Positions 5,438 through 42,489 of a DNA stretch of 43,773 bases are shown piece after piece; positions within the stretch are counted from its first letter, which is position 1, and every line of letters begins with the position of its first letter. Under the pieces are notes generated by a model. The model searched no databases. It was given only the letters and a program-made list of their open reading frames with translations, and was not told where the DNA came from. The stretch is from a virus. Lineage: Duplodnaviria > Heunggongvirae > Uroviricota > Caudoviricetes. The stretch lies in IMG/VR virus record IMGVR_UViG_2718218402_000005. One strand, given 5' to 3'. Position numbers and translations under genes: made by a program.

Positions 5438-5786
5438 GCCAAATTAACAATCGGAACTTCGTGAAGAGAAAGCATAATCCAAATCTGAATAATTAAGTTC
5501 AGCACTGTAAATAAAATTTAATCCTTAACTGGAGGTATATCTATGTCAAATACACAGAAAATTATTAACACTGAAAAATATAACGAGTGGGTGAAAAATT
5601 CTCTGAGCAGATTTTTAAAATTACTGGCGACGAGAATGTGGCAAAAAATGAATTAGAACCGTGGACACCTGAAGGAAACGCACCAAATTATTGCTGGTGG
5701 GAGGTTGATCCGGTTGATGCTGCAAATGAAGCCATGAGTTACCACAACGATTAATGTCGGGAGGCCGCCCGAAAGGGCGGTAAGAA

Positions 5787-6005
5787 ATGACTACATTATT
5801 CAGAAAAGAATATCCGCAAAAAAGTAGGGCGACAGAATTTTTGTTTCTCATTCTGTTTATCGTATTGATGATACCGATATCCCCTCTAATTTTTGTCTGG
5901 GCAATCGGGAAAATAATTGAGCCAGTTACTGAATTGTATACCGACGTTGTATGGGCGTCGTTCAACACACTGCACAATAAAATTAATCCGTATAAGGAAA
6001 ACTGA
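5787..6005 (+). CDS. Small membrane protein (72 aa)
   Basis: Hydrophobic stretch FLFLILFIVLMIPISPLIFVWAIG; nin-like variable region. Confidence 0.3.
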   Translation: MTTLFRKEYPQKSRATEFLFLILFIVLMIPISPLIFVWAIGKIIEPVTELYTDVVWASFNTLHNKINPYKEN

Positions 6006-6006
6006 T

Positions 6007-6270
6007 ATGGCAACTTTGACAAAAAAAGAACGGGCATGGTTGAACGAATTACAGGAAGTTCTTGATCGCTGTCCATCACCGAAAAAAATTGGCTTTTACA
6101 CCATTGGCGATAAAAGCATTTACCTGTATGACCTACGCCGCATGGATGAAATCATGGAGGCTCTTGATAATCGTTCGTCGATGGATTGGTGTGTTGCTGT
6201 TCATGATATGAATGCAGGGTTTGATGAAAAGATTTTGTTCCCCTCATCAGTTGAAAGCACTGCGGGTTAA
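6007..6270 (+). CDS. Hypothetical protein (87 aa)
   Basis: Internal Met of ORF 5917-6270 (MATLTKKERAWLNEL...) preceded by AGGA. Confidence 0.35.
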   Translation: MATLTKKERAWLNELQEVLDRCPSPKKIGFYTIGDKSIYLYDLRRMDEIMEALDNRSSMDWCVAVHDMNAGFDEKILFPSSVESTAG

Positions 6271-6280
6271 GGAGTAACAC

Positions 6281-6934
6281 ATGACCACTATTACCAAAGA
6301 ACGTATTGAATTGTTCATTAAAAATCCGCTTGAAAACGGGCTTACCCGTGGTGAACAAATGGAACTGGCACGGATTGCGCTGGCATCGCTGGAAGCAGAG
6401 CCGGTGGCAAAGATTATAGCTCATTACCCATTAGGAGTTGACGTAGGCAAACAAAAGTTCGTACAGGCCATTGGAGAGCTTCCTGACTTTGGCGGATATC
6501 TATTTGCCGCCCCTCCAGCGCCGATAGTGCCGGAAGAAATGTATTGGCAGGATGCGCCAGTTGAAGGCAGCAGCAAAGCGGCTGCATACGCTACAGGCTG
6601 GAACGATTGCCGCGAAGCCATGCTTCAGTCCGGAAACTTTCGGGAAAATAAAGATTCGTCAACCAATAATTTTCGGAAAATCCCGGAAGCGTCAACCAGC
6701 TCTCCGGTAACTCCGGCTCTTCTGCCTGGTGGTTTCACCATTGAGGATGCGAAGGATTTACATGAAGACCTGGTGCGCAGCCACATAAGCCAGGCTTTAA
6801 GTAGCGAAAAGATGAAAAAGAAAGATCGCGATGCTGATTTGCGTTGGATCCATGGCGTTATAGTTCAGGCAGCGTGGTTTGTGAAAGCATCACTGGAAGC
6901 GTTGCCTGAACTGTCGCAGGAGGTGAATCAATGA
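6281..6934 (+). CDS. Hypothetical protein (217 aa)
   Basis: Long ORF with SD-like AAGGAG upstream; no family recognised. Confidence 0.4.
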   Translation: MTTITKERIELFIKNPLENGLTRGEQMELARIALASLEAEPVAKIIAHYPLGVDVGKQKFVQAIGELPDFGGYLFAAPPAPIVPEEMYWQDAPVEGSSKAAAYATGWNDCREAMLQSGNFRENKDSSTNNFRKIPEASTSSPVTPALLPGGFTIEDAKDLHEDLVRSHISQALSSEKMKKKDRDADLRWIHGVIVQAAWFVKASLEALPELSQEVNQ

Positions 6935-7225
6935 CCTGGCCTGAGGCATTCACAACGGTAGGAATTGCGATGGCGGTGACGCTGGTGGTGTATTCGATTT
7001 GCCGCTGGGGATAAAAACGGTTTGCGGGAAAAGGAGAGTTAAGTAGAATTGCTGCGGGTGCTTGAGGCTATCTGTCTCAGGCATGAACACCAAAAGGCAG
7101 ATAGAGAAAAGCCCCAGTTAACATTACGCGTCCGGCAAGACGCTTAACATTAATCTGAGGCCATATCTATGCTCTACACACGTAGGTTAGCCTCTTACGT
7201 GCCGAAAGGCAAGGAGAAGCAGGCT

Positions 7226-11725: not shown

Positions 11726-12016
11726 CACTTATTTTCCCTGGCTCGCTTTTGCGGGCTTTTTTTTTAAATGTCTCACAATTCAGGCGGTTGACTGTTGTCT
11801 GGTTTGCGGGGAGTTTGTTAAAAGAAACTGGCATGGTGAATCCCCCTGTGCGGAGGGGCAATCAGCGAGTAGGTATATGGGATAATCGCGGATTCAGGTG
11901 CTGGTACTGAATTCACCGGGAGGCACCCGGCACCATGCAATGGCACATAGCGCCACTCTCCAGCCCCTCTCCGGAGGGGCTGTTTATATTGATTTTGTCA
12001 GATGTGAGTAAACTCC

Positions 12017-12352
12017 TTATGGACTTTGCTGTTTTAGTCCATAAGGACATATTTGCAGAGTGCAACGGTTATTAAAGCATTCATTCAATACGTTATCTGT
12101 ATTTGTAGGGCATTCCTGGCTGTTTTTGATTAAATTCCAGAATGTTTTATTGAATGGTACTACGTTGTAAATGGTTACAGGTAGCACTTTGTTATTGAGC
12201 ATGATACCTGTGTGAGTCAGTGTAAATATACTTTCAGGAGGTAAGAAAGCATCCGATTGATACCAGATTATTAATTTTATTTTACTCCATATGACTGAAA
12301 AAGATATTCCGCATGATGGCTGGATAACTGTATCAATCACAATCCACTTCAT
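12017..12352 (-). CDS. Hypothetical protein encoded on AT-rich DNA (111 aa), moron candidate
   Basis: AT-rich ORF antisense to the late operon, between the tRNAs and the late genes; stop lies inside a perfect 12-bp inverted repeat. Confidence 0.3.
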
Positions 12353-12603
12353 TTAGTTTCCTTGTTTATGCCTTGCTGGTGTTGTTCTGAAAAGTATAAA
12401 TGATAATTTTGAATGTAAACCATAGGGCAGAATTATTTTTCTGATGTTGTTTATTATTTATTTAAATGCAGGGTGGTTTATACCTCGTCTTGTAGTTTAT
12501 CCATGCATATCTGCTTTATGATGAGGTTTTTATTTAAGGTGTGGTTTTGTGTATTACATGTCAGGTATCTTAAAGAATTATTTTTTAGATGGTGGAAAGA
12601 ACC

Positions 12604-31956: not shown

Positions 31957-32112
31957 TTACTCCTCAGATTCGTAAGCTGTGAAGACAGCGACCTCCGTCT
32001 GGCCGGTTCGGATTCGTACCTCGCAGAGGTCTTTCCTCGTTACCAGTGCCGTCACTATGACGGTTAAACAGATGACGATCAGGGCGATTAACATCGCCTT
32101 TTGCTGCTTCAT
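31957..32112 (-). CDS. hok: Hok/Gef-family type I toxin (51 aa)
   Basis: MKQQKAMLIALIVICLTVIVTALVTRKDLCEVRIRTGQTEVAVFTAYESEE; upstream leader homology to about 32300. Confidence 0.85.
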   Translation of the reverse strand: MKQQKAMLIALIVICLTVIVTALVTRKDLCEVRIRTGQTEVAVFTAYESEE

Positions 32113-32854
32113 AGCCTGCTTCTCCTTGCCTTTCGGCACGTAAGAGGCTAACCTACGTGTGTAGAGCATAGATATGGCCTCAGATTAATGTTAAGCGTCT
32201 TGCCGGACGCGTAATGTTAACTGGGGCTTTTCTCTATCTGCCTTTGGTGTTGATGCCCGAGGCAGATAGCCTCAAGCACCCGCAGCAATTCTACTTAACT
32301 ACCGTTACCTCGCCAATATGAAATCAATCAGAAAGGTGATCCATAAGAACAACAGCAAGACAATAAATTGCCATTACAGCAGCAATAGCCAGCGCACATT
32401 TGAGAACCAGCACCACAACCTCCTGTATTGGACGTACACCAGTCCTGATAAATATGAGGCTGTCTCGTCAGTGATTCAATACAACTACTGGGTATAGTTT
32501 CTATGATTTTGTTCTGTGGAAATGGAAAACAGCAACCAGTCACCACCAGCACTTCTTTAAACATGCCAAGTCACACGCAAGCCAACATTATAGTTCCCTT
32601 TGAGCGAGCAGATGAAGCTAGCAAAAATATTGATCACTTAGGATGCATTACTAACGTTGCTATGTGTTAACGAACAGGGAGTGGGTCATCAGCATAAATA
32701 TTTATGCAGTAGGTTTCTTTTAGGACTAGATTAATCAAAAACATTTAGATAAAATTATAAAATCAAGAAATTGGTGGCAATTAATCTTTAATTGTGCCAG
32801 CTGAATTTCGTTATTATAGAAGATTAGCTTTTTTTTGAGTGTTTGGAGAGTAAA

Positions 32855-33550
32855 ATGTTAGAACCACCAAAGAGTTATAATGAAATGTTGCCTATGCTCC
32901 ATAAGGCGACTTTTATTACTACATTTATATTTTACCTATCATTAGTCATTTATGGCTACATGCCATTGGTTGGCATTAATGCCAAGTATATCCCCCCCGT
33001 TAAAGACTACGAGGAATTTATTAAATGGATATTAACCTTTGGCATATTACCAATTGCATCTTCAGTTTTTTGGTCAGTAATTAGTGGAGCTTTAGATCTA
33101 CATAATAATGTAGCAAAAATTATTGGAATAAGGAAGATGTGGGATAGTCATTTAATTATTAAACCATTAGCAAAAATTGCAGGCGTTACGAGAAAATTAA
33201 CTACTGATGAATCTCACAAGGTAATGAGTAAACTGTATTACCCAGAAGTTAAAGAGTTAAAAGACAAACATTACGTTGAACTTTTCTGGAACAAAGTTTA
33301 TTACTTTTGGGTTTTCTTTGAACATACAGTAATCGCATTTGTTACTATTTTAATAATAAGTATCGCCAAATTAACAAATATATTCTCTGTTACTGGCTCT
33401 TTAATTAATCTTTGGTTGTGGATTATTTCTCTTGTCGCATTTGACTTCCTTATTTTCATAGCATCAGTTAAACCAAGAACAGAAAGCCAAGTAAGACAAA
33501 TACCTGATAGCAAAATAAAAGAATTCTTTAACAATAACAATATTTTTTAA
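32855..33550 (+). CDS. Predicted 4-TM membrane protein of AT-rich cargo island (231 aa)
   Basis: ATG 32855 after GGAG; four hydrophobic helices; AT-rich. Confidence 0.5.
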   Translation: MLEPPKSYNEMLPMLHKATFITTFIFYLSLVIYGYMPLVGINAKYIPPVKDYEEFIKWILTFGILPIASSVFWSVISGALDLHNNVAKIIGIRKMWDSHLIIKPLAKIAGVTRKLTTDESHKVMSKLYYPEVKELKDKHYVELFWNKVYYFWVFFEHTVIAFVTILIISIAKLTNIFSVTGSLINLWLWIISLVAFDFLIFIASVKPRTESQVRQIPDSKIKEFFNNNNIF

Positions 33551-33556
33551 ACGAGG

Positions 33557-34216
33557 TTGATTTTGAATTACAAAATAAATGGAATAAACATACGTTCAGA
33601 AAATGCAGCGAAACCGCACACTATGCCATCTAACTATCTCTGTAAACAGATTGAAAGCACTAATAAAAATGGCAATGCCCTTGATTTTGGATGTGGAAAA
33701 CTTAGATATTCAGAACAATTAGTAAATAAATTTGAAACTGTGACATTTTTAGATTCCAGAAGACAACTAGAAAGAGTGCAAATTATCAGAGGTGTACAAA
33801 CCACGATTCCAGATTACGTGATAAATAACTATAAGAATGCTAATATTGTTTCTTATGAAAATATAGATAAAATAACAAATCATTATGATTTCATACTTTG
33901 CGCAAACGTGCTTTCCGCAATTCCATGTGAATCCACAATTCACAAAGTCCTCAGTGCGATTAGAGAATTATTAAAGAGTGATGGTGAAGCACTGATTGTC
34001 AATCAATACAAAAGTTCTTATTTCAAGAGGTACGAGAGCGGTATTAAACATTTGCATGGGTATATATACCAAAACTCTCGCAATGCTTTCTACTATGGTT
34101 TATTAGATGTGGATACTGTAAGTAAAATATGCTCAGATAATAATTTAGAAATAATAAGATCATGGAGCAAAGCAGGTAGTTCATATGTGGTTGTTGGTAA
34201 ACATATACATATTTAG
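33557..34216 (+). CDS. Class I SAM-dependent methyltransferase-fold protein (about 218 aa)
   Basis: Glycine-rich motif LDFGCGKLRY followed by FLDS; TTG start (33557 or 33563) 7-13 nt after the upstream stop. Confidence 0.45.
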   Translation: MILNYKINGINIRSENAAKPHTMPSNYLCKQIESTNKNGNALDFGCGKLRYSEQLVNKFETVTFLDSRRQLERVQIIRGVQTTIPDYVINNYKNANIVSYENIDKITNHYDFILCANVLSAIPCESTIHKVLSAIRELLKSDGEALIVNQYKSSYFKRYESGIKHLHGYIYQNSRNAFYYGLLDVDTVSKICSDNNLEIIRSWSKAGSSYVVVGKHIHI

Positions 34217-34530
34217 TTTATTTCAACAAATTATTAGAAAGAGTGATTTGCTTGTTAATTATTAGCTCGGCAGTGCCGGATCAACATGACCCTGCCACTT
34301 AGGCCATTGCCGGTTTACCTACTTTTGTAAGGTTCAGCATGAAGTTTTTATATACTCTTCCTAATATCAATAGTGATGCTCGCTTATGTTAGCTGCTTCT
34401 TGTACATAGTAGCCTTCTCCGACAGTACTGCAATGAGCGGAGAGTAAAAGTCGATAAACAATAAGGAGGTTCACAATAAATATTTCTCGGTGAAACTTTC
34501 AAAGCATTCTCTGTTTTGCTAAATCGACAA

Positions 34531-35430
34531 TTATAAATCAACAACATTTAGTGTTATATCAATATTATTTAGCCTTGCAATCTCTGATGAATCACTTGCT
34601 ATTTTAGCTTTTAATTTATCAATATTAATCATATCTTCATGGCTTATATAAACCATATCACCTTGGTTAACTTTAGATTTGTTCACTATGGCTTGAATAA
34701 CAGACAAATCATCCATTACACCTCTCATAAATTTCACCATGCTTTGATCTTTGAAGTCAGATATCGATTTTGAACGTTGCTTACGTTGAATTGTTCCTTT
34801 TGTAATTACTTCATTAATTTCTTTTAAACCAGTGAGCATATCAGACAGACTGCCTTCGCAACTCATCCGATGTTTTATTGCATTGCGATTAATAATATTG
34901 AGTATAATTTCGAGTGAATCTTTATCACTCCATGGATGTAATGATGTATAATCATGATGGCGTCGAATGGCGTCAATCATATCCTGGACCATATCTTCAT
35001 CTGCTTTATCGCAAAGTTCATTCACGAAATAGCTGGGGTCGATTATTTTACAATAACTTGGAGTTAGGTATCTTGAGGCTTTACAAAAACCAAAAATATA
35101 TAAAGTAGAGTATTTATCTTTCAGACTCTCTCCTATTTCATTTATTTTCTCAAAAGATTCGATAGTTTTTTTAATTTTTGCTGGACTTGCATTCGTAGTA
35201 ACTTGAACTGCTATCATGTTTTTATTATCAGCTAAATCAATGGCGGGAAAATTAACTTTAATCTGATTCATGTTTACCAGTTCACCCATTTTCAGCGCGC
35301 GAAACATAAAGATGGTCAATGACTCAATTATTCTTTCCATGTCATGAAAGCCTGCCTGTTTGCGTTGCGCGATATAAAGCTGGAGTAGTGCAATATCACT
35401 CTGTAAGTTTCTAATAAGTGGATCAATCAT
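34531..35430 (-). CDS. Hypothetical 299-aa protein with conserved-looking N-terminal motif and a C-terminal R-x4-H motif
   Basis: FPAIDLADNKNMIAVQVTTNASPAKIKKTI block resembles SMEK-type N-terminal domains from memory; RNAIKH fits a HEPN-like R-x4-H pattern; AT-rich; convergent with the preceding two genes. Confidence 0.45.
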   Translation of the reverse strand: MIDPLIRNLQSDIALLQLYIAQRKQAGFHDMERIIESLTIFMFRALKMGELVNMNQIKVNFPAIDLADNKNMIAVQVTTNASPAKIKKTIESFEKINEIGESLKDKYSTLYIFGFCKASRYLTPSYCKIIDPSYFVNELCDKADEDMVQDMIDAIRRHHDYTSLHPWSDKDSLEIILNIINRNAIKHRMSCEGSLSDMLTGLKEINEVITKGTIQRKQRSKSISDFKDQSMVKFMRGVMDDLSVIQAIVNKSKVNQGDMVYISHEDMINIDKLKAKIASDSSEIARLNNIDITLNVVDL

Positions 35431-35682
35431 AGCTAATAATCCTTTTCAATGAAGCTGGAGGTGTGTTTAACTATTAGTTAAATTTCTATTTTTATAGAAA
35501 CAAGCTTTACAACTTCATCAAAGTTTCTCAAATCCTAATCCACTTTGCAAATCCACTAACCATGCTGAATGCTTTCTGTTGTTAAACATATCCGCTGCTG
35601 GCACCAAGCAGACAAACACACTAACTCTACCCTACTCCACAAAAGAGCCAATCAATATCTGAACTAATAAACTTTAATCTCA

Positions 35683-36105
35683 TCACTTCAATAAATATCG
35701 AGCATTTCCCTGATAGAATGCTAGTATGCGCTGCATAACTTCACTCTTCCGGCACTCGCGACAGATTATGTTCTGACGCCTGTCGTAGCGACGTATTTCT
35801 CCGTCAGGTAATGACCAGATAAGGTCCGGATCAACCGCAGATGGTTCCTTCAGCTTTGCCCTTGAGAGCTTTTTACGGGCATTTTGCCAGTCCTTACGCG
35901 CCTGTTCAGACGGGAATAACCCGTAACCAGAGTTGTATACATCGCCGCTGGCAACCAGCTCTCTTGCGAGAACGCTCATCAGATATCTTGTCGCACCTGT
36001 CTTGACTTCCAGTTGCCGTAACGTCTCACGCCCACTCCGGCGTACGAGTTCAACAACCTGCCCTTTAATTTTTTCCCGCTCTTCTTGTGTAAAAACTTTT
36101 GCCAC
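35683..36105 (-). CDS. Hypothetical protein co-inherited with rep (second copy, 140 aa)
   Basis: Paralog of 5015-5437. Confidence 0.4.
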   Translation of the reverse strand: MAKVFTQEEREKIKGQVVELVRRSGRETLRQLEVKTGATRYLMSVLARELVASGDVYNSGYGLFPSEQARKDWQNARKKLSRAKLKEPSAVDPDLIWSLPDGEIRRYDRRQNIICRECRKSEVMQRILAFYQGNARYLLK

Positions 36106-40562: not shown

Positions 40563-41153
40563 TTATATGTCAGGTGTCTGAAGTTTTGCTTTGGCTCTTA
40601 AAATGGTTTGCCGCGAGGTTTTGAATTCCCGGGCAATGGCACTTATACTTACACCTGACTTAATTCGTTCGAATACCGCCTGTTTCTGTTCTTCATTTAA
40701 CACAGGTGGTCGACCAAAACGTTTCCCTGCGCCGCGGGCTCTTACTATCCCGGAATGAGTGCGTTCAAGTAAAAGGTCTCGTTCAAATTCAGCGACTGCT
40801 GAAATTACTTGCATCATCATTTTTCCTGTTGGACTGGTCAGGTCAATGCCCCCCAATGCTAAGCAATGCACTCTGATACCTGTTTCGGTCAGTTGTTCCA
40901 CTGTTTTCCTGATATCCATTGCATTACAACCAAGGCGATCCAGTTTTGTCACAATCAATTGATCACCACATTTTAGGCGAGCAAGCAACCGGTTAAAACC
41001 AGGACGCTCACTGGTTGCTGCTGAGCCGCTAATGTGTTCTTCGATTATTTGCTGAGGTTTGATTTTAAAACCTGCACTTTCGATTTCCCGGCGTTGATTT
41101 TCGGTGGTCTGATCCAGCGTTGATATCCGACAGTAAGCAAAAATTTGAGACAT
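40563..41153 (-). CDS. pinQ: Pin/Gin/Hin-family serine DNA invertase
   Basis: N-terminal catalytic motif [14 protein letters not shown] and C-terminal HTH; 196 aa. Confidence 0.85.
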
Positions 41154-41469
41154 AGTGAGACTCTATACGAAATTGGTGTTCATATCATAATGCATCTCAG
41201 AAAATAATTATGATTATTTTTGTGCATATTTGTATGTACACGTTCGAAAATAAACGAATGCGTATGCAACCCCGTAATTTTGGTGAGACCCAAAATCGAT
41301 TTTGTGAAAAATGGCTTTAACTCGGTTTGTTTTTCGAGTTCCGGGCGGACTCAAGGAAGAAGAATAGTGTTGCGTGTTATTTTAACCAGATTTCAAGTTG
41401 TTTGGTCGTGGAAAAGTGGAGCAAAATGTTGTTAAAGTGGAAAAATGATAAAAAAGTAAGTTTATTATA

Positions 41470-41703
41470 TTACATTTTACCATTTAAATTTTGGTTGTCT
41501 TTAAGAACTGATATCGCTGTTTGTAATAATTCTTTGTTATCCAGCCATGATTTTTTCTTTATGTTTCCTTCAATGTAATCAAGCAATGTTCTGGTATTGA
41601 TAGGTCTTCCCTGTTTTGCTACTTCCACTACAGCATCCCCTAGGATAATTCTTACTTCAGGAAGCTGCGCAGGGAACCACTTTAGGGTGTCTTTTGATTT
41701 CAT
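41470..41703 (-). CDS. ydfK: YdfK/YnaE-like small prophage protein (77 aa)
   Basis: Internal Met gives MKSKDTLKWFPAQLPEVRIILGDAVVEVAKQGRPINTRTLLDYIEGNIKKKSWLDNKELL..., consistent with YdfK from memory; adjacent to pin. Confidence 0.6.
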   Translation of the reverse strand: MKSKDTLKWFPAQLPEVRIILGDAVVEVAKQGRPINTRTLLDYIEGNIKKKSWLDNKELLQTAISVLKDNQNLNGKM

Positions 41704-42489
41704 GAAGATATTCCTTAAAATATTATTGATTTTCATTGCGATATTGTATGTCTGATTCAGGATATGTTGACTTATACATCGGTTTTGTCTGGGTTATTGG
41801 ATATGCCAATCCCTAATTTTATTAGGGCATGACTAAAAATGCTGAATATGATAAGGAGAGATGTGATTATCAGTATGCTGTTCATATAGCCTCGAATTAG
41901 TAATGTGTTATATATGATATAGTTGACAATTTTTATCTTGGGTGTTCTTAAAGTTCGTAGATAAACATTGTCGTTTCAGGTATACAGGAATGCTAACAGG
42001 TGGCAGCAAAAATCAGGCGGTTTATGGCGCAAGCTGAAGCGGCAACTGCAAACTATCTTATGCAGAGACTCTACACGGATTGGGTTTAAAAGTATACATA
42101 GATAACAGTTTTTATCTGAAAAAGAAAAATATCAAGGTGATATAGCCTATATGCCTTTGATGCGGAGGAATGAATGTGATGGGAGTGATGTATCTGAATA
42201 GTTGAAAAACCGCAGACACGCCTTATGCAAGAACGTGCTGCGATTGGCTGGTAAATTTTTCGATAGTGTGAGTATTGAATGATTTCCAGCCGTTCTTGAT
42301 TTTACGCATAAATCCATGAAAAAACTACTTATCTGTTGGGGAGTTTTTTTGGGGCATATATGGGACAGAAATAGGCCCCAGATAGACACTGAGATCGAAC
42401 TTAGGATGCTTTTTAAAAAAATGCAACTATCTGAAAAAACCTAGAAAACGCCAAGGAAACCACAGGATGGGAAAAAACACCTGTGAATT

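What the first reader, a model, noticed from the sequence alone, without database searches (positions are those of the whole stretch)
32570..35460. AT-rich three-gene cargo island in the variable nin-like slot of Unit 2: candidate undescribed defence or toxin module
Between the replication genes and hok, Unit 2 carries about 2.9 kb of visibly AT-rich DNA (not computed) that has no counterpart in Unit 1, whose equivalent slot (5440-7040) holds unrelated genes. The island encodes a 4-TM membrane protein (32855-33550), a tightly linked protein with a SAM-methyltransferase glycine motif LDFGCGKL (33557-34216), and a convergent 299-aa protein (34531-35430) with an N-terminal FPAIDLADNKNMIAVQVTT block and an R-x4-H (HEPN-like) motif. 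Foreign base composition, a variable prophage slot, and a membrane effector beside possible nucleic-acid-modifying or nuclease-like domains are what unassigned anti-phage or abortive-infection systems look like. I cannot assign it to a named system.
Basis: partly seen in the sequence, partly recalled or inferred. Interest (0 to 1): 0.75.

Follow-up and report, generated by a model that had tools for sequence, protein, structure and literature searches.

The report
Two stacked prophage defence cargo modules
A 3-kb AT-rich insert in an E. coli prophage carries two separate modules: a single-gene anti-phage nuclease validated in 2026 (DS-27), and an uncharacterised membrane-protein plus methyltransferase operon that stays paired across distant bacterial phyla and is a good candidate for a new defence system.

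Summary
Window 32612-35598 is 32.6% GC against 47-49% in the flanks. It sits in a variable cargo slot between the DUF977 replication-region gene and hokD/sok, and it encodes the three ORFs described.

The island is not one three-gene system.

ORF3 (34531-35430, -) is 296/299 identical to the protein cloned alone as DS-27 in DefensePredictor (Science 2026), which cut RB69 plating about 700-fold. It therefore defends against phage, works alone, and is already described. Its N-terminus is a SMEK/Mrr-type nuclease domain. The proposed HEPN assignment is not supported.

ORF1 and ORF2 (32855-34216, +) form a separate conserved operon: a 4-TM protein and a small-molecule-type SAM methyltransferase. 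They were adjacent in 14 of 14 assessable species-representative genome loci and 32 of 34 assessable metagenome loci. The loci span Proteobacteria, Planctomycetota and Bacillota, and neither search was designed to select for the pairing. The pair occurs without SMEK at several prophage cargo sites. It lies next to Hachiman and probably Lamassu in Pseudomonas, and once the 4-TM protein is fused to a TIR domain.

The pair matches no PADLOC model, and I found no paper on it. Its function is inferred, not shown.

The parts
32612..35598 (.). AT-rich cargo island in the DUF977 | hokD-sok slot of lambdoid prophage Unit 2
   Evidence: GC is 0.326 against 0.47-0.49 in the flanks. Homology to phages Tritos, Evi and 204576 stops at 32611 and resumes at about 35591-35599. 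The whole island is present in 151 of 5426 complete E. coli genomes.
32855..33550 (+). ORF1: 231-aa four-TM inner-membrane protein (called TM4 here). Predicted N-in/C-in, with a basic cytoplasmic helical insert (residues 81-147) and a basic C-terminal tail.
   Evidence: GGAG lies 6 nt before the ATG. The AF2 model has pLDDT 89.2. It hits no Pfam, NCBIfam or PADLOC family. The family has 189 representatives of 50%-identity clusters at E<=1e-3, with Y8, H83, Y129 and W152 invariant and R93, D97 and E156 kept in at least 90%.
33563..34216 (+). ORF2: 217-aa class I SAM-dependent methyltransferase of the small-molecule type. It starts 12 nt after the ORF1 stop and has its own GAGG.
   Evidence: Methyltransf_12 2.4e-8 and Methyltransf_23 2.9e-8. 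The best solved relative is TehB 2xva at E 9e-4. Invariant features are the SENAAKP N-terminal motif, LD[FY]GCGKLRY (motif I), D66 and NVLSAIP. An orthologue with 40% identity (E 4e-53) lies next to a TM4-TIR fusion.
34217..34530 (.). Convergent intergenic region between the two modules
   Evidence: About 70% conserved among diverged copies of the island. Rfam finds nothing here. The consensus scan finds no terminator-like site here. Its function is unknown.
34531..35430 (-). ORF3: 299-aa SMEK-domain protein, equal to the single-gene anti-phage system DS-27
   Evidence: 296/299 identical to WP_087896215.1. That protein is listed as defensive and replicated, and it lowered RB69 plating by 2.85 log (PMC13092281).
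34993..35418 (-). ORF3 residues 5-146: SMEK_N / Mrr-type PD-(D/E)xK-fold nuclease domain
34534..34992 (-). ORF3 residues 147-299: helical C-terminal domain of unknown family, with conserved H158, H165, D169, R182, H187, E192, K221 and K274
   Evidence: The AF2 model has helices at 145-156, 169-182, 195-210, 229-251 and 264-287. No Pfam family hits this region in any of 45 members. Structure searches give only generic helical-bundle matches.

Best explanation
The island is a cargo slot holding two independent modules that have been inherited together in E. coli.

Module A is ORF3, the single-gene defence system DS-27.
- Shown: a 99%-identical allele, cloned alone with its predicted native promoter, protects E. 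coli MG1655 against phage RB69.
- Shown here: its N-terminus is homologous to the Mrr/SMEK nuclease effector domain of short-Argonaute Mrr-APAZ systems. Its C-terminus is a conserved helical domain of no known family.
- Inferred: the C-terminal domain keeps the nuclease off until it detects infection. The nuclease then cuts DNA, either phage DNA directly or indiscriminately as abortive infection.

Module B is ORF1 plus ORF2, a tightly coupled operon.
- Shown here: a 4-TM membrane protein and a dedicated small-molecule-type SAM methyltransferase are adjacent in almost every locus that could be assessed, across distant phyla and in either gene order. They sit at prophage cargo sites and beside known defence systems. 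In one variant the membrane protein carries a cytoplasmic TIR domain.
- Inferred: this is a two-component anti-phage or mobile-element conflict system. I propose that the membrane protein is the resident sensor or effector, acting through its cytoplasmic insert and C-terminal tail, and that the methyltransferase is its obligate enzymatic partner. The partner would either methylate a small molecule or the membrane protein itself to arm or trigger it, or act on a phage-derived substrate.
- The outcome I think most likely is infection-triggered membrane or metabolic shutdown, in the manner of RexAB.
For: Module A:
- Identity to the DS-27 protein is 296/299.
- Table S6 lists it as a single CDS with 'defensive TRUE'. 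Table S8 lists 'replicated TRUE'. Table S7 gives RB69 titres of 7e6 falling to 1e4 PFU. The assay design is described.
- Homologues stand alone beside SLATT_5, Abi_alpha, SymE, AbiGi, integrases and Mrr_cat genes.

Module B:
- The ORF1 stop and ORF2 start are 12 nt apart with a GAGG between them. Orthologous pairs commonly overlap by 4-20 bp.
- Starting from the methyltransferase, the species-representative genomes gave 15 loci. A TM4 gene was adjacent in 14 of 14 assessable loci, from Enterobacter, three Pseudomonas, Saccharophagus, Planctomycetota, Deltaproteobacteria, Christensenella, Bacillota, Hellea, Sphingomonas and Erythrobacter.
- Starting from a TM4-only DNA motif, metagenomes gave 38 loci. 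The methyltransferase was adjacent in 32. One more locus kept a remnant, one was a decayed TM4 without it, and four were cut by contig ends.
- Locus L047 encodes an ORF2 orthologue (40% identity, E 4e-53). A TM4 protein with a C-terminal TIR_2 domain (2e-20; PADLOC PDC-S66 and ThsB-like) starts 3 nt after its stop codon.
- The pair sits after ogr in P2-like prophages, between gpS and gpV in another, in a relaxase-bearing element, and in lambdoid prophages that lack SMEK.
- Neighbours include a complete Hachiman system and a complete Lamassu system, each scored by PADLOC at E of 0 to 1e-70. There are also a type II methyltransferase, two SIR2_2 proteins, Eco57I, DUF4062, integrases, resolvases and transposases.
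- The basic central insert (K+R = 13) and tail (K+R = 5) place them, and the fused TIR, in the cytoplasm.
Against: Module B:
- No experiment bears on it. The defence role rests on context and on a single TIR fusion.
- Many neighbours are housekeeping genes such as ABC transporters, GNATs and FMN reductases. I could not compute a proper genome-wide defence-association statistic.
- The methyltransferase's nearest relatives are TehB-type enzymes, which fits detoxification or metabolite modification equally well.
- Structure search gave no informative match for ORF1.
- The pair matches no PADLOC model.
- The pair was not among the 94 units cloned in DefensePredictor. In the truncated stored tables, only the SMEK gene of an ECOR contig that carries the same SMEK protein (NZ_QOXY01000081.1, Table S5) is listed as predicted defensive.

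Linkage within E. coli:
- The three genes are completely linked, at 151, 151 and 151 genomes, including five genomes with a copy only 80-90% identical. Functional cooperation between the modules is therefore not excluded.

Module A:
- The canonical lysine position of (D/E)xK is a threonine (Q76-V-T78). Catalysis would need K85, which is invariant. Nuclease activity is unproven for this protein.
- DS-27 is not discussed in the paper's main text, so no mechanism has been published.
Confidence: 0.6

Rival explanations
1. All three genes form one defence system. The membrane protein would be the effector, with the methyltransferase and the SMEK nuclease as its partners.
For: Within E. coli the three genes are always together. 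The pair, SMEK and the whole island each occur in 151 genomes, and five genomes carry a copy only 80-90% identical. Diverged trios at 83-91% amino-acid identity recur in IMG/VR prophages L035-L038, L041 and L045.
Against: SMEK homologues in six other genomic contexts never have ORF1/ORF2 nearby. The pair occurs without SMEK in more than 50 loci. The genes are convergent, with a 314-bp gap between them. DS-27 protected as a single cloned gene. Co-inheritance in one prophage slot explains the linkage.
Confidence: 0.08
2. The ORF1-ORF2 pair is not an immune system. It would be a small-molecule or membrane modification and detoxification module, like TehA/TehB tellurite and selenite methylation or a lipid or quinone methylation step, carried by mobile elements as a fitness or lysogenic-conversion factor.
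For: The closest relatives of ORF2 are TehB and other small-molecule methyltransferases. TehB is also encoded next to a membrane protein; that rests on my own knowledge of the tehAB operon. Many neighbours of the pair are metabolic or transport genes. The pair hits no defence model.
Against: ORF2 scores 29 bits against the TehB equivalog cut-off of 303. ORF1 shows no match to TehA or any transporter family. A detoxification role does not explain the TIR fusion, the prophage cargo positions, or the adjacency to Hachiman, Lamassu and DS-27. Distribution is patchy, at 2.8% of E. coli genomes.
Confidence: 0.22
3. The ORF1-ORF2 pair is an addiction (toxin-antitoxin-like) module. The membrane protein would be a toxin and the methyltransferase would neutralise it, stabilising the mobile element rather than sensing phage.
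For: The two genes are strictly co-inherited and tightly spaced or overlapping, as in toxin-antitoxin pairs. The pair lies beside hok/sok, and related SMEK loci lie beside SymE toxins. The locus that lost the methyltransferase also has a decayed membrane gene (L096).
Against: No similarity to any known toxin or antitoxin family was found. Gene order is not fixed. Many toxin-antitoxin pairs also act in defence, so this rival overlaps the main explanation rather than excluding it.
Confidence: 0.15

Closest known systems
DS-27 ('SMEK') single-gene defence system, DefensePredictor, Science 2026 (PMC13092281)
   Same: ORF3 is the same protein, 296/299 identical and the same length. It is also from an E. 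coli accessory region.
   Different: There are three substitutions (K95E, I96T, M189V in the validated allele). At position 189 the window allele carries the family-consensus Met (kept in at least 90% of homologues); positions 95-96 are variable in the family. No mechanism has been published.
SPARMA / Mrr(SMEK)-APAZ short-Argonaute systems (Kordia jejudonensis; PDB 26bh; Kim et al. 2020, as cited in bioRxiv 10.1101/2025.04.08.647717 and PMC10810196)
   Same: The N-terminal nuclease effector domain is homologous (E 6e-13) and shares the NFPAIDLAD...QxT...K signature.
   Different: ORF3 has no APAZ domain and no Argonaute partner. The nuclease domain is joined to an unrelated helical domain of about 150 residues, so the trigger cannot be guide-RNA target recognition.
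RexAB of phage lambda, and Kiwa (KwaA/KwaB)
   Same: All are two-gene operons of a small 4-TM membrane protein plus a cytosolic partner. RexAB is likewise carried by a lambdoid prophage. This is a resemblance in architecture only, and the RexAB comparison rests on my own knowledge. The Kiwa architecture is described in PMC11785009.
TehA/TehB tellurite-resistance pair
   Same: ORF2's nearest solved relative is TehB (E 9e-4), and both methyltransferases are encoded beside a membrane protein.
   Different: ORF2 falls far below the TehB equivalog cut-offs (28-29 bits against 218-303). ORF1 is a 4-TM protein with no match to TehA. The pair lies in mobile-element and defence contexts.
TIR-domain membrane-linked defence proteins (TIR-TM, ThsB-like, PADLOC candidate PDC-S66)
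   Same: One distant member of the ORF1 family has a C-terminal TIR domain that matches these models (6e-59 to PDC-S66). The conserved WxxxE glutamate is visible in its sequence.
   Different: The window's ORF1 has no TIR domain. In the fusion locus the methyltransferase is still present, so the TIR domain is an addition and not a replacement.

Membership tests
DS-27 (SMEK single-gene anti-phage system) | Sequence identity to the validated protein WP_087896215.1 | tested here: met
   296/299 identical with no gaps. The sequence was taken from Table S8.
DS-27 (SMEK single-gene anti-phage system) | Acts as a stand-alone gene | tested here: met
   It was cloned as a single CDS.
DS-27 (SMEK single-gene anti-phage system) | Anti-phage phenotype | not testable with these tools
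   Reported for the 99%-identical allele only: RB69 plating down 2.85 log, replicated.
SMEK_N / Mrr-type PD-(D/E)xK nuclease domain | Profile match above the curated cut-off | tested here: met
   PF21941 scores 79.9 bits against a cut-off of 27. NF033859 scores 105 bits against a cut-off of 30. All 45 homologues match.
SMEK_N / Mrr-type PD-(D/E)xK nuclease domain | Restriction-endonuclease fold | tested here: met
SMEK_N / Mrr-type PD-(D/E)xK nuclease domain | Complete catalytic D...(D/E/Q)xK motif | tested here: inconclusive
   D65 and Q76 are invariant, but the K position is T78. An invariant K85 follows in the next helix, and the Kordia domain has the same pattern. Whether the site is active cannot be decided from sequence.
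Short-Argonaute Mrr/SMEK-APAZ (SPARMA) system | APAZ domain fused to the nuclease | tested here: not met
   The PADLOC hit covers only model positions 9-143 of 463. Residues 147-299 form a helical domain with no family match.
Short-Argonaute Mrr/SMEK-APAZ (SPARMA) system | Adjacent short pAgo gene | tested here: not met
   The neighbours are the methyltransferase and the DUF977 gene. No Argonaute gene appears in any related locus.
HEPN ribonuclease domain (ORF3 C-terminus) | R-x4-6-H motif | tested here: met
   The motif R182-NAIK-H187 is present. R182 is invariant and H187 is kept in at least 90% of homologues.
HEPN ribonuclease domain (ORF3 C-terminus) | Profile match to any HEPN family | tested here: not met
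   None of 45 members hits a HEPN Pfam model, even at E<=10. NCBIfam and PADLOC also give none.
HEPN ribonuclease domain (ORF3 C-terminus) | HEPN fold with the motif at the start of the last core helix | tested here: inconclusive
Class I SAM-dependent methyltransferase (ORF2) | Profile match and SAM-binding motifs | tested here: met
   Methyltransf_12 scores 35 bits against a cut-off of 30, and Methyltransf_23 scores 34 against 27. Motif I D43-x-G45-x-G47 and the acidic D66 are invariant.
DNA methyltransferase of a restriction-modification or BREX-like system (ORF2) | (D/N/S)PP(Y/F/W) or C5 PCQ/ENV catalytic motifs and a target-recognition domain | tested here: not met
   Motif IV is NVLSAIP. 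No N6_Mtase, N6_N4_Mtase or DNA_methylase model hits ORF2. At 217 aa there is no room for a target-recognition domain.
TehB tellurite methyltransferase (ORF2) | NCBIfam equivalog score | tested here: not met
   ORF2 scores 29 and 27.9 bits against cut-offs of 303 and 218.
Known methyltransferase-containing defence systems in PADLOC v2 (MADS, PD-lambda-5 and others) | Match to the system's protein models | tested here: not met
   The only hit is mad2 at 19.3 bits over the generic methyltransferase core. ORF1 and nine distant relatives give no hits.
SLATT membrane effector family (ORF1) | Profile similarity | tested here: not met
   No Pfam hit. hhalign of the TM4 family against a SLATT_5 protein gives a probability of 0.3%.

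The most novel reading that the evidence does not exclude
The ORF1-ORF2 pair is a new, phylogenetically widespread anti-phage system whose core enzyme is a small-molecule-type SAM methyltransferase working with a dedicated 4-TM protein. In that reading, immunity runs on methylation of a non-DNA substrate (a metabolite, a nucleotide-derived signal, or the membrane partner itself). This differs from the DNA methylation used by restriction-modification, BREX or MADS systems, and effector add-ons such as TIR domains would be optional.
Probability: 0.25. Interest if true: 0.8.

Novelty: new variant of a known kind. Interest (0 to 1): 0.58.

Why it matters
For ORF3, the result mainly tidies the record. 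The gene is the recently validated DS-27. This work places it in a defined prophage cargo slot and links its nuclease domain to the Mrr/SMEK effector of short-Argonaute systems. It also shows that the HEPN idea does not hold, which directs mechanistic work to D65, Q76 and K85 and to the conserved His/Arg/Glu cluster of the C-terminal domain.

The more valuable result is the neighbouring pair. It is an unannotated two-gene operon with no Pfam family for the membrane protein and no defence model. The two genes stay together from E. coli prophages to Planctomycetota and Bacillota, sit beside Hachiman, Lamassu and DS-27, and once carry a TIR domain.

If the pair is an immune system, it would add a methyltransferase of non-DNA type to the known repertoire of immune enzymes. 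It can be tested directly in E. coli with the native 1.6-kb fragment.

The case also shows that stable linkage within one species (151 of 151 genomes) can wrongly suggest a single system.

Tried and rejected
- Three-gene system: rejected from the genomic contexts of homologues.
- Possible orthology of the Pseudomonas SMEK neighbours (219 aa and SLATT_5) to ORF2 and ORF1: BLASTP found no similarity. hhalign of the TM4 family against SLATT_5 gave a probability of 0.3%.
- PDB sequence search with ORF2 alone: no hit.
- Searches for further TM4 fusion proteins with a family profile: none beyond P0285.
I replaced it with a hand-made degenerate DNA motif. That motif found nothing in viral contigs and 38 loci in metagenomes.
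- Sequenced phage records: none carries ORF1. For ORF3 there is only a distant SMEK_N match in a Klebsiella phage.
- Literature: no hits for the three RefSeq protein accessions, for phrases pairing a methyltransferase with a TM protein, or for Methyltransf_23 together with phage and defence terms.
- PD-lambda-5 (which contains a methyltransferase): considered and rejected, because ORF2 hit no PD-lambda-5 model in the PADLOC scan.
- Promoter and terminator scan of the island: uninformative, with fewer promoter-like sites than in shuffled sequence.
- Rfam: only the known sok RNA, which lies outside the island.
- P0170 context: the contig was too short to use.
- Confirming Lamassu in L053 through PDB: no hit. 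The assignment of Lamassu to that locus rests on the PADLOC census plus gene sizes.

Full report
**Source and setting.** The window is E. coli strain D1 (dog isolate), chromosome NZ_CP010134.1 from position 5021436 (100% over 24 kb). Window coordinates equal those of locus L102. It holds two Qin/Stx-like lambdoid prophage units in opposite orientation. In Unit 2 the order on the minus strand is dicA/dicC, ydaT, a replication gene, the DUF977 gene (35683-36105), then the island, then sok/hokD, DUF968, rusA and Q. The sok RNA is confirmed at 32107-32281 (Rfam, 114 bits).

**Check of the observation.** GC falls to 0.30-0.35 in every 500-bp window from 32501 to 35500. It is 0.326 over the island against 0.494 and 0.466 in the flanks. 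The three ORFs are present and match PGAP's calls. ORF2 most likely starts at TTG 33563, because a GAGG lies 6 nt upstream and homologues begin MNY. Homology to sequenced lambdoid phages ends at 32611 and resumes at about 35591-35599. Phage Tritos carries a different 444-aa gene between the same flanks. Unit 1 carries unrelated small genes there.

**Distribution in E. coli.** The whole island occurs in 151 of 5426 complete genomes. The ORF1-ORF2 segment alone and ORF3 alone are each found in 151 genomes, with the same split of 146 at 99% identity or more and 5 at 80-90%. Within E. coli the three genes are therefore completely linked. IMG/VR prophages hold diverged trios at 83-91% amino-acid identity (L035-L038, L041, L045). 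On these data alone one would call it a single system.

**The wider contexts separate the genes.** Full-length ORF3 homologues of about 300 aa at 45-83% identity are common in Proteobacteria. In Pseudomonas, Cupriavidus, Vibrio, Enterobacter, Yersinia and an unnamed assembly the gene stands alone. Its neighbours change each time:
- a weak HEPN-like protein with SLATT_5;
- a helicase and DUF87 cluster with SymE;
- Abi_alpha;
- integrases and resolvases;
- an N6_N4 methylase with AbiGi;
- an Mrr_cat protein.

It is never next to ORF1 or ORF2. In the other direction, ORF1 homologues are always followed by an ORF2 homologue and often have no SMEK nearby. Examples are:
- after ogr in P2-like prophages of Providencia and Enterobacter;
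- between gpS and gpV of another P2-like phage;
- in a relaxase-bearing element beside a reverse transcriptase;
- in lambdoid prophages where other genes replace SMEK (L039, L040, L042).

**ORF3 is DS-27.** ORF3 carries SMEK_N (PF21941 2e-22; NF033859 1e-30). It also matches the N-terminal nuclease part of PADLOC's Argonaute-associated REase model. A profile of 45 homologues hits one solved structure, the Mrr domain of the Kordia jejudonensis Mrr-APAZ short-Argonaute system (26bh_D, E 6e-13), with nearly the same NFPAIDLAD...QxT...K signature. The literature describes SMEK/Mrr as the nuclease effector domain of such systems (PMC10810196; bioRxiv 10.1101/2025.04.08.647717).

The supplementary tables of DefensePredictor (Science 2026, PMC13092281) list a transcription unit named 'SMEK':
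- it is a single CDS, WP_087896215.1, 299 aa, from an ECOR strain;
- it is marked 'defensive TRUE', named DS-27, and 'replicated TRUE';
- RB69 titre fell from 7e6 to 1e4 PFU on the low-copy plasmid used for the paper's native-promoter screen (assay design).

That protein is 296/299 identical to ORF3. The defence role of ORF3 is therefore known, and it works alone. The paper's main text does not discuss it, so its mechanism remains open.

**ORF1-ORF2 is a conserved operon.**

*ORF1.* It matches no family in any library. Hydropathy and the AF2 model (pLDDT 89.2) give four TM helices, a basic cytoplasmic helical insert (residues 81-147, K+R = 13) and a basic C-terminal tail. This implies N-in/C-in topology. 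An exhaustive profile search found 189 representatives of 50%-identity clusters at E<=1e-3. Nearly all are 220-250 aa and share LH(D/N)xxS/A...IRxx(F/W)D...FYxY...WxW(F/Y)WxxxE.

*ORF2.* It is a class I SAM methyltransferase with intact motif I and the acidic D66, an invariant N-terminal SENAAKP motif, and NVLSAIP as motif IV. It has no DNA-methyltransferase motifs. Its nearest solved relative is TehB at E 9e-4, but it falls far below the TehB equivalog cut-offs.

**The pairing holds from both starting points.**

*TIR fusion locus.* One distant TM4 member, P0285, carries a C-terminal TIR domain (TIR_2 2e-20; PADLOC PDC-S66 6e-59 and ThsB-like). In its metagenome contig its start codon lies 3 nt after the stop of a clear ORF2 orthologue (40% identity over the full length, E 4e-53).

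*Starting from the methyltransferase.* Peptide patterns scanned over one genome per species gave 15 loci. A TM4 gene was directly adjacent in all 14 that could be assessed, in Gamma-, Alpha- and Deltaproteobacteria, Planctomycetota and Bacillota.

*Starting from TM4.* A degenerate DNA motif for KLHDR[IV]SDxxxIRxx[FY]D gave 38 metagenome loci. The methyltransferase was adjacent in 32. One locus kept a methyltransferase remnant, one had a decayed TM4 with no methyltransferase, and four were cut by contig ends.

*Other features.* Both gene orders occur, and the genes often overlap by 4-20 bp.

**Context of the pair.** Among neighbours of 14 non-E. coli loci (13 species-representative genome loci plus the metagenome locus L047) there is one complete Hachiman system and one complete Lamassu system.
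- HamA scores 2.6e-118 and HamB scores E = 0. The 839-aa helicase directly upstream in Pseudomonas L052 matches solved HamB.
- LmuA, LmuB and LmuC score from 1e-155 to 2e-70. By gene sizes they are the three genes upstream of the pair in P. simiae L053, which is an inference.
- There are also a type II C5 methyltransferase and two integrases, alongside many housekeeping genes.

In 16 metagenome loci the neighbours include two SIR2_2 proteins, Eco57I, DUF4062, a UvrD helicase, transposases, a resolvase and an integrase. This looks like variable, defence-rich DNA, but my sample is small and I could not compute a background rate.

**Interpretation.** I conclude with fair confidence that the island holds two modules stacked in one cargo slot. 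For the pair I commit to a two-component conflict or defence system. The membrane protein would be the sensor or effector, and the methyltransferase would be its obligate enzymatic partner acting on a non-DNA substrate. I put the defence role at roughly 55%. My specific RexAB-like shutdown picture is less likely than that. The rival readings are:
- a detoxification or modification module of TehAB type;
- an addiction module;
- the original three-gene system, which is least likely.

**What is known and what is new.** ORF3 is already described as DS-27. The pair matches nothing in PADLOC v2. It was not among the 94 units cloned in DefensePredictor. My literature searches found nothing on it, although subscription-journal papers and newer databases were out of reach.

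Noticed in passing
window 32107-32281 (-) and 31957-32112 (-): A sok antisense RNA (Rfam RF01794, 114 bits, E 2e-26) lies next to hokD and forms the left border of the cargo slot. This is a known hok/sok type I toxin-antitoxin locus.
   Followed up: yes
window 5438-7225 (Unit 1 equivalent slot): The same DUF977 | hokD slot in Unit 1 holds different cargo: DUF4014, small hypothetical genes, and a 176-aa gene that PGAP calls dTDP-6-deoxy-L-hexose 3-O-methyltransferase (6404-6934). GC there is 0.38-0.44. This is a second methyltransferase, unrelated in annotation, in the paralogous slot.
   Followed up: partly
L104 (phage Tritos OV696610.1 33876-35210): Phage Tritos has a single 444-aa hypothetical gene on the opposite strand in the same slot between the DUF977-like gene and hokD. 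The slot therefore behaves as a cargo hotspot in lambdoid phages.
   Followed up: no
window 34217-34530: The convergent intergenic region is about 70% conserved among diverged islands, with a well-kept block near 34440-34490. A 7-codon ORF on the minus strand (MYKKQLT in the window) is retained in 3 of 4 copies. L037 has a run of about ten TTCTGAG repeats inserted here.
   Followed up: no
L002 6958-9736; L003 2667-5445: In Pseudomonas the SMEK homologue is followed on the same strand by a 219-aa protein with a weak HEPN_RiboL-PSP hit, a SLATT_5 membrane protein and a 309-aa unknown protein. This may be a separate candidate system.
   Followed up: partly
L073 180-1586 (-): The TM4 and methyltransferase profiles both hit one 469-aa stop-to-stop ORF, while the TM4 C-terminus lies in another frame. 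This is either a natural fusion or a frameshift in the assembly.
   Followed up: no
L047 748-1878 (+): A 376-aa protein with no Pfam hit lies 180 bp upstream of the methyltransferase and TM4-TIR pair, on the same strand. It could be a third component of that variant.
   Followed up: no
window 12001-12500 and 41001-42000: There are two further AT-rich patches. One has GC 0.33 around the iraM gene. The other, at GC 0.34-0.36 near the window end, lies beyond the retrieved annotated locus L102 (which stops at the end of the circular genome record, window 39090), so its genes are not known here.
   Followed up: no
L001 7561-7989 (same prophage type in strain ECO2947): A TerB-family tellurite-resistance pseudogene lies near the Q/tRNA region of the related prophage. 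I note it only because ORF2's nearest relatives are TehB-type enzymes. No link was established.
   Followed up: no
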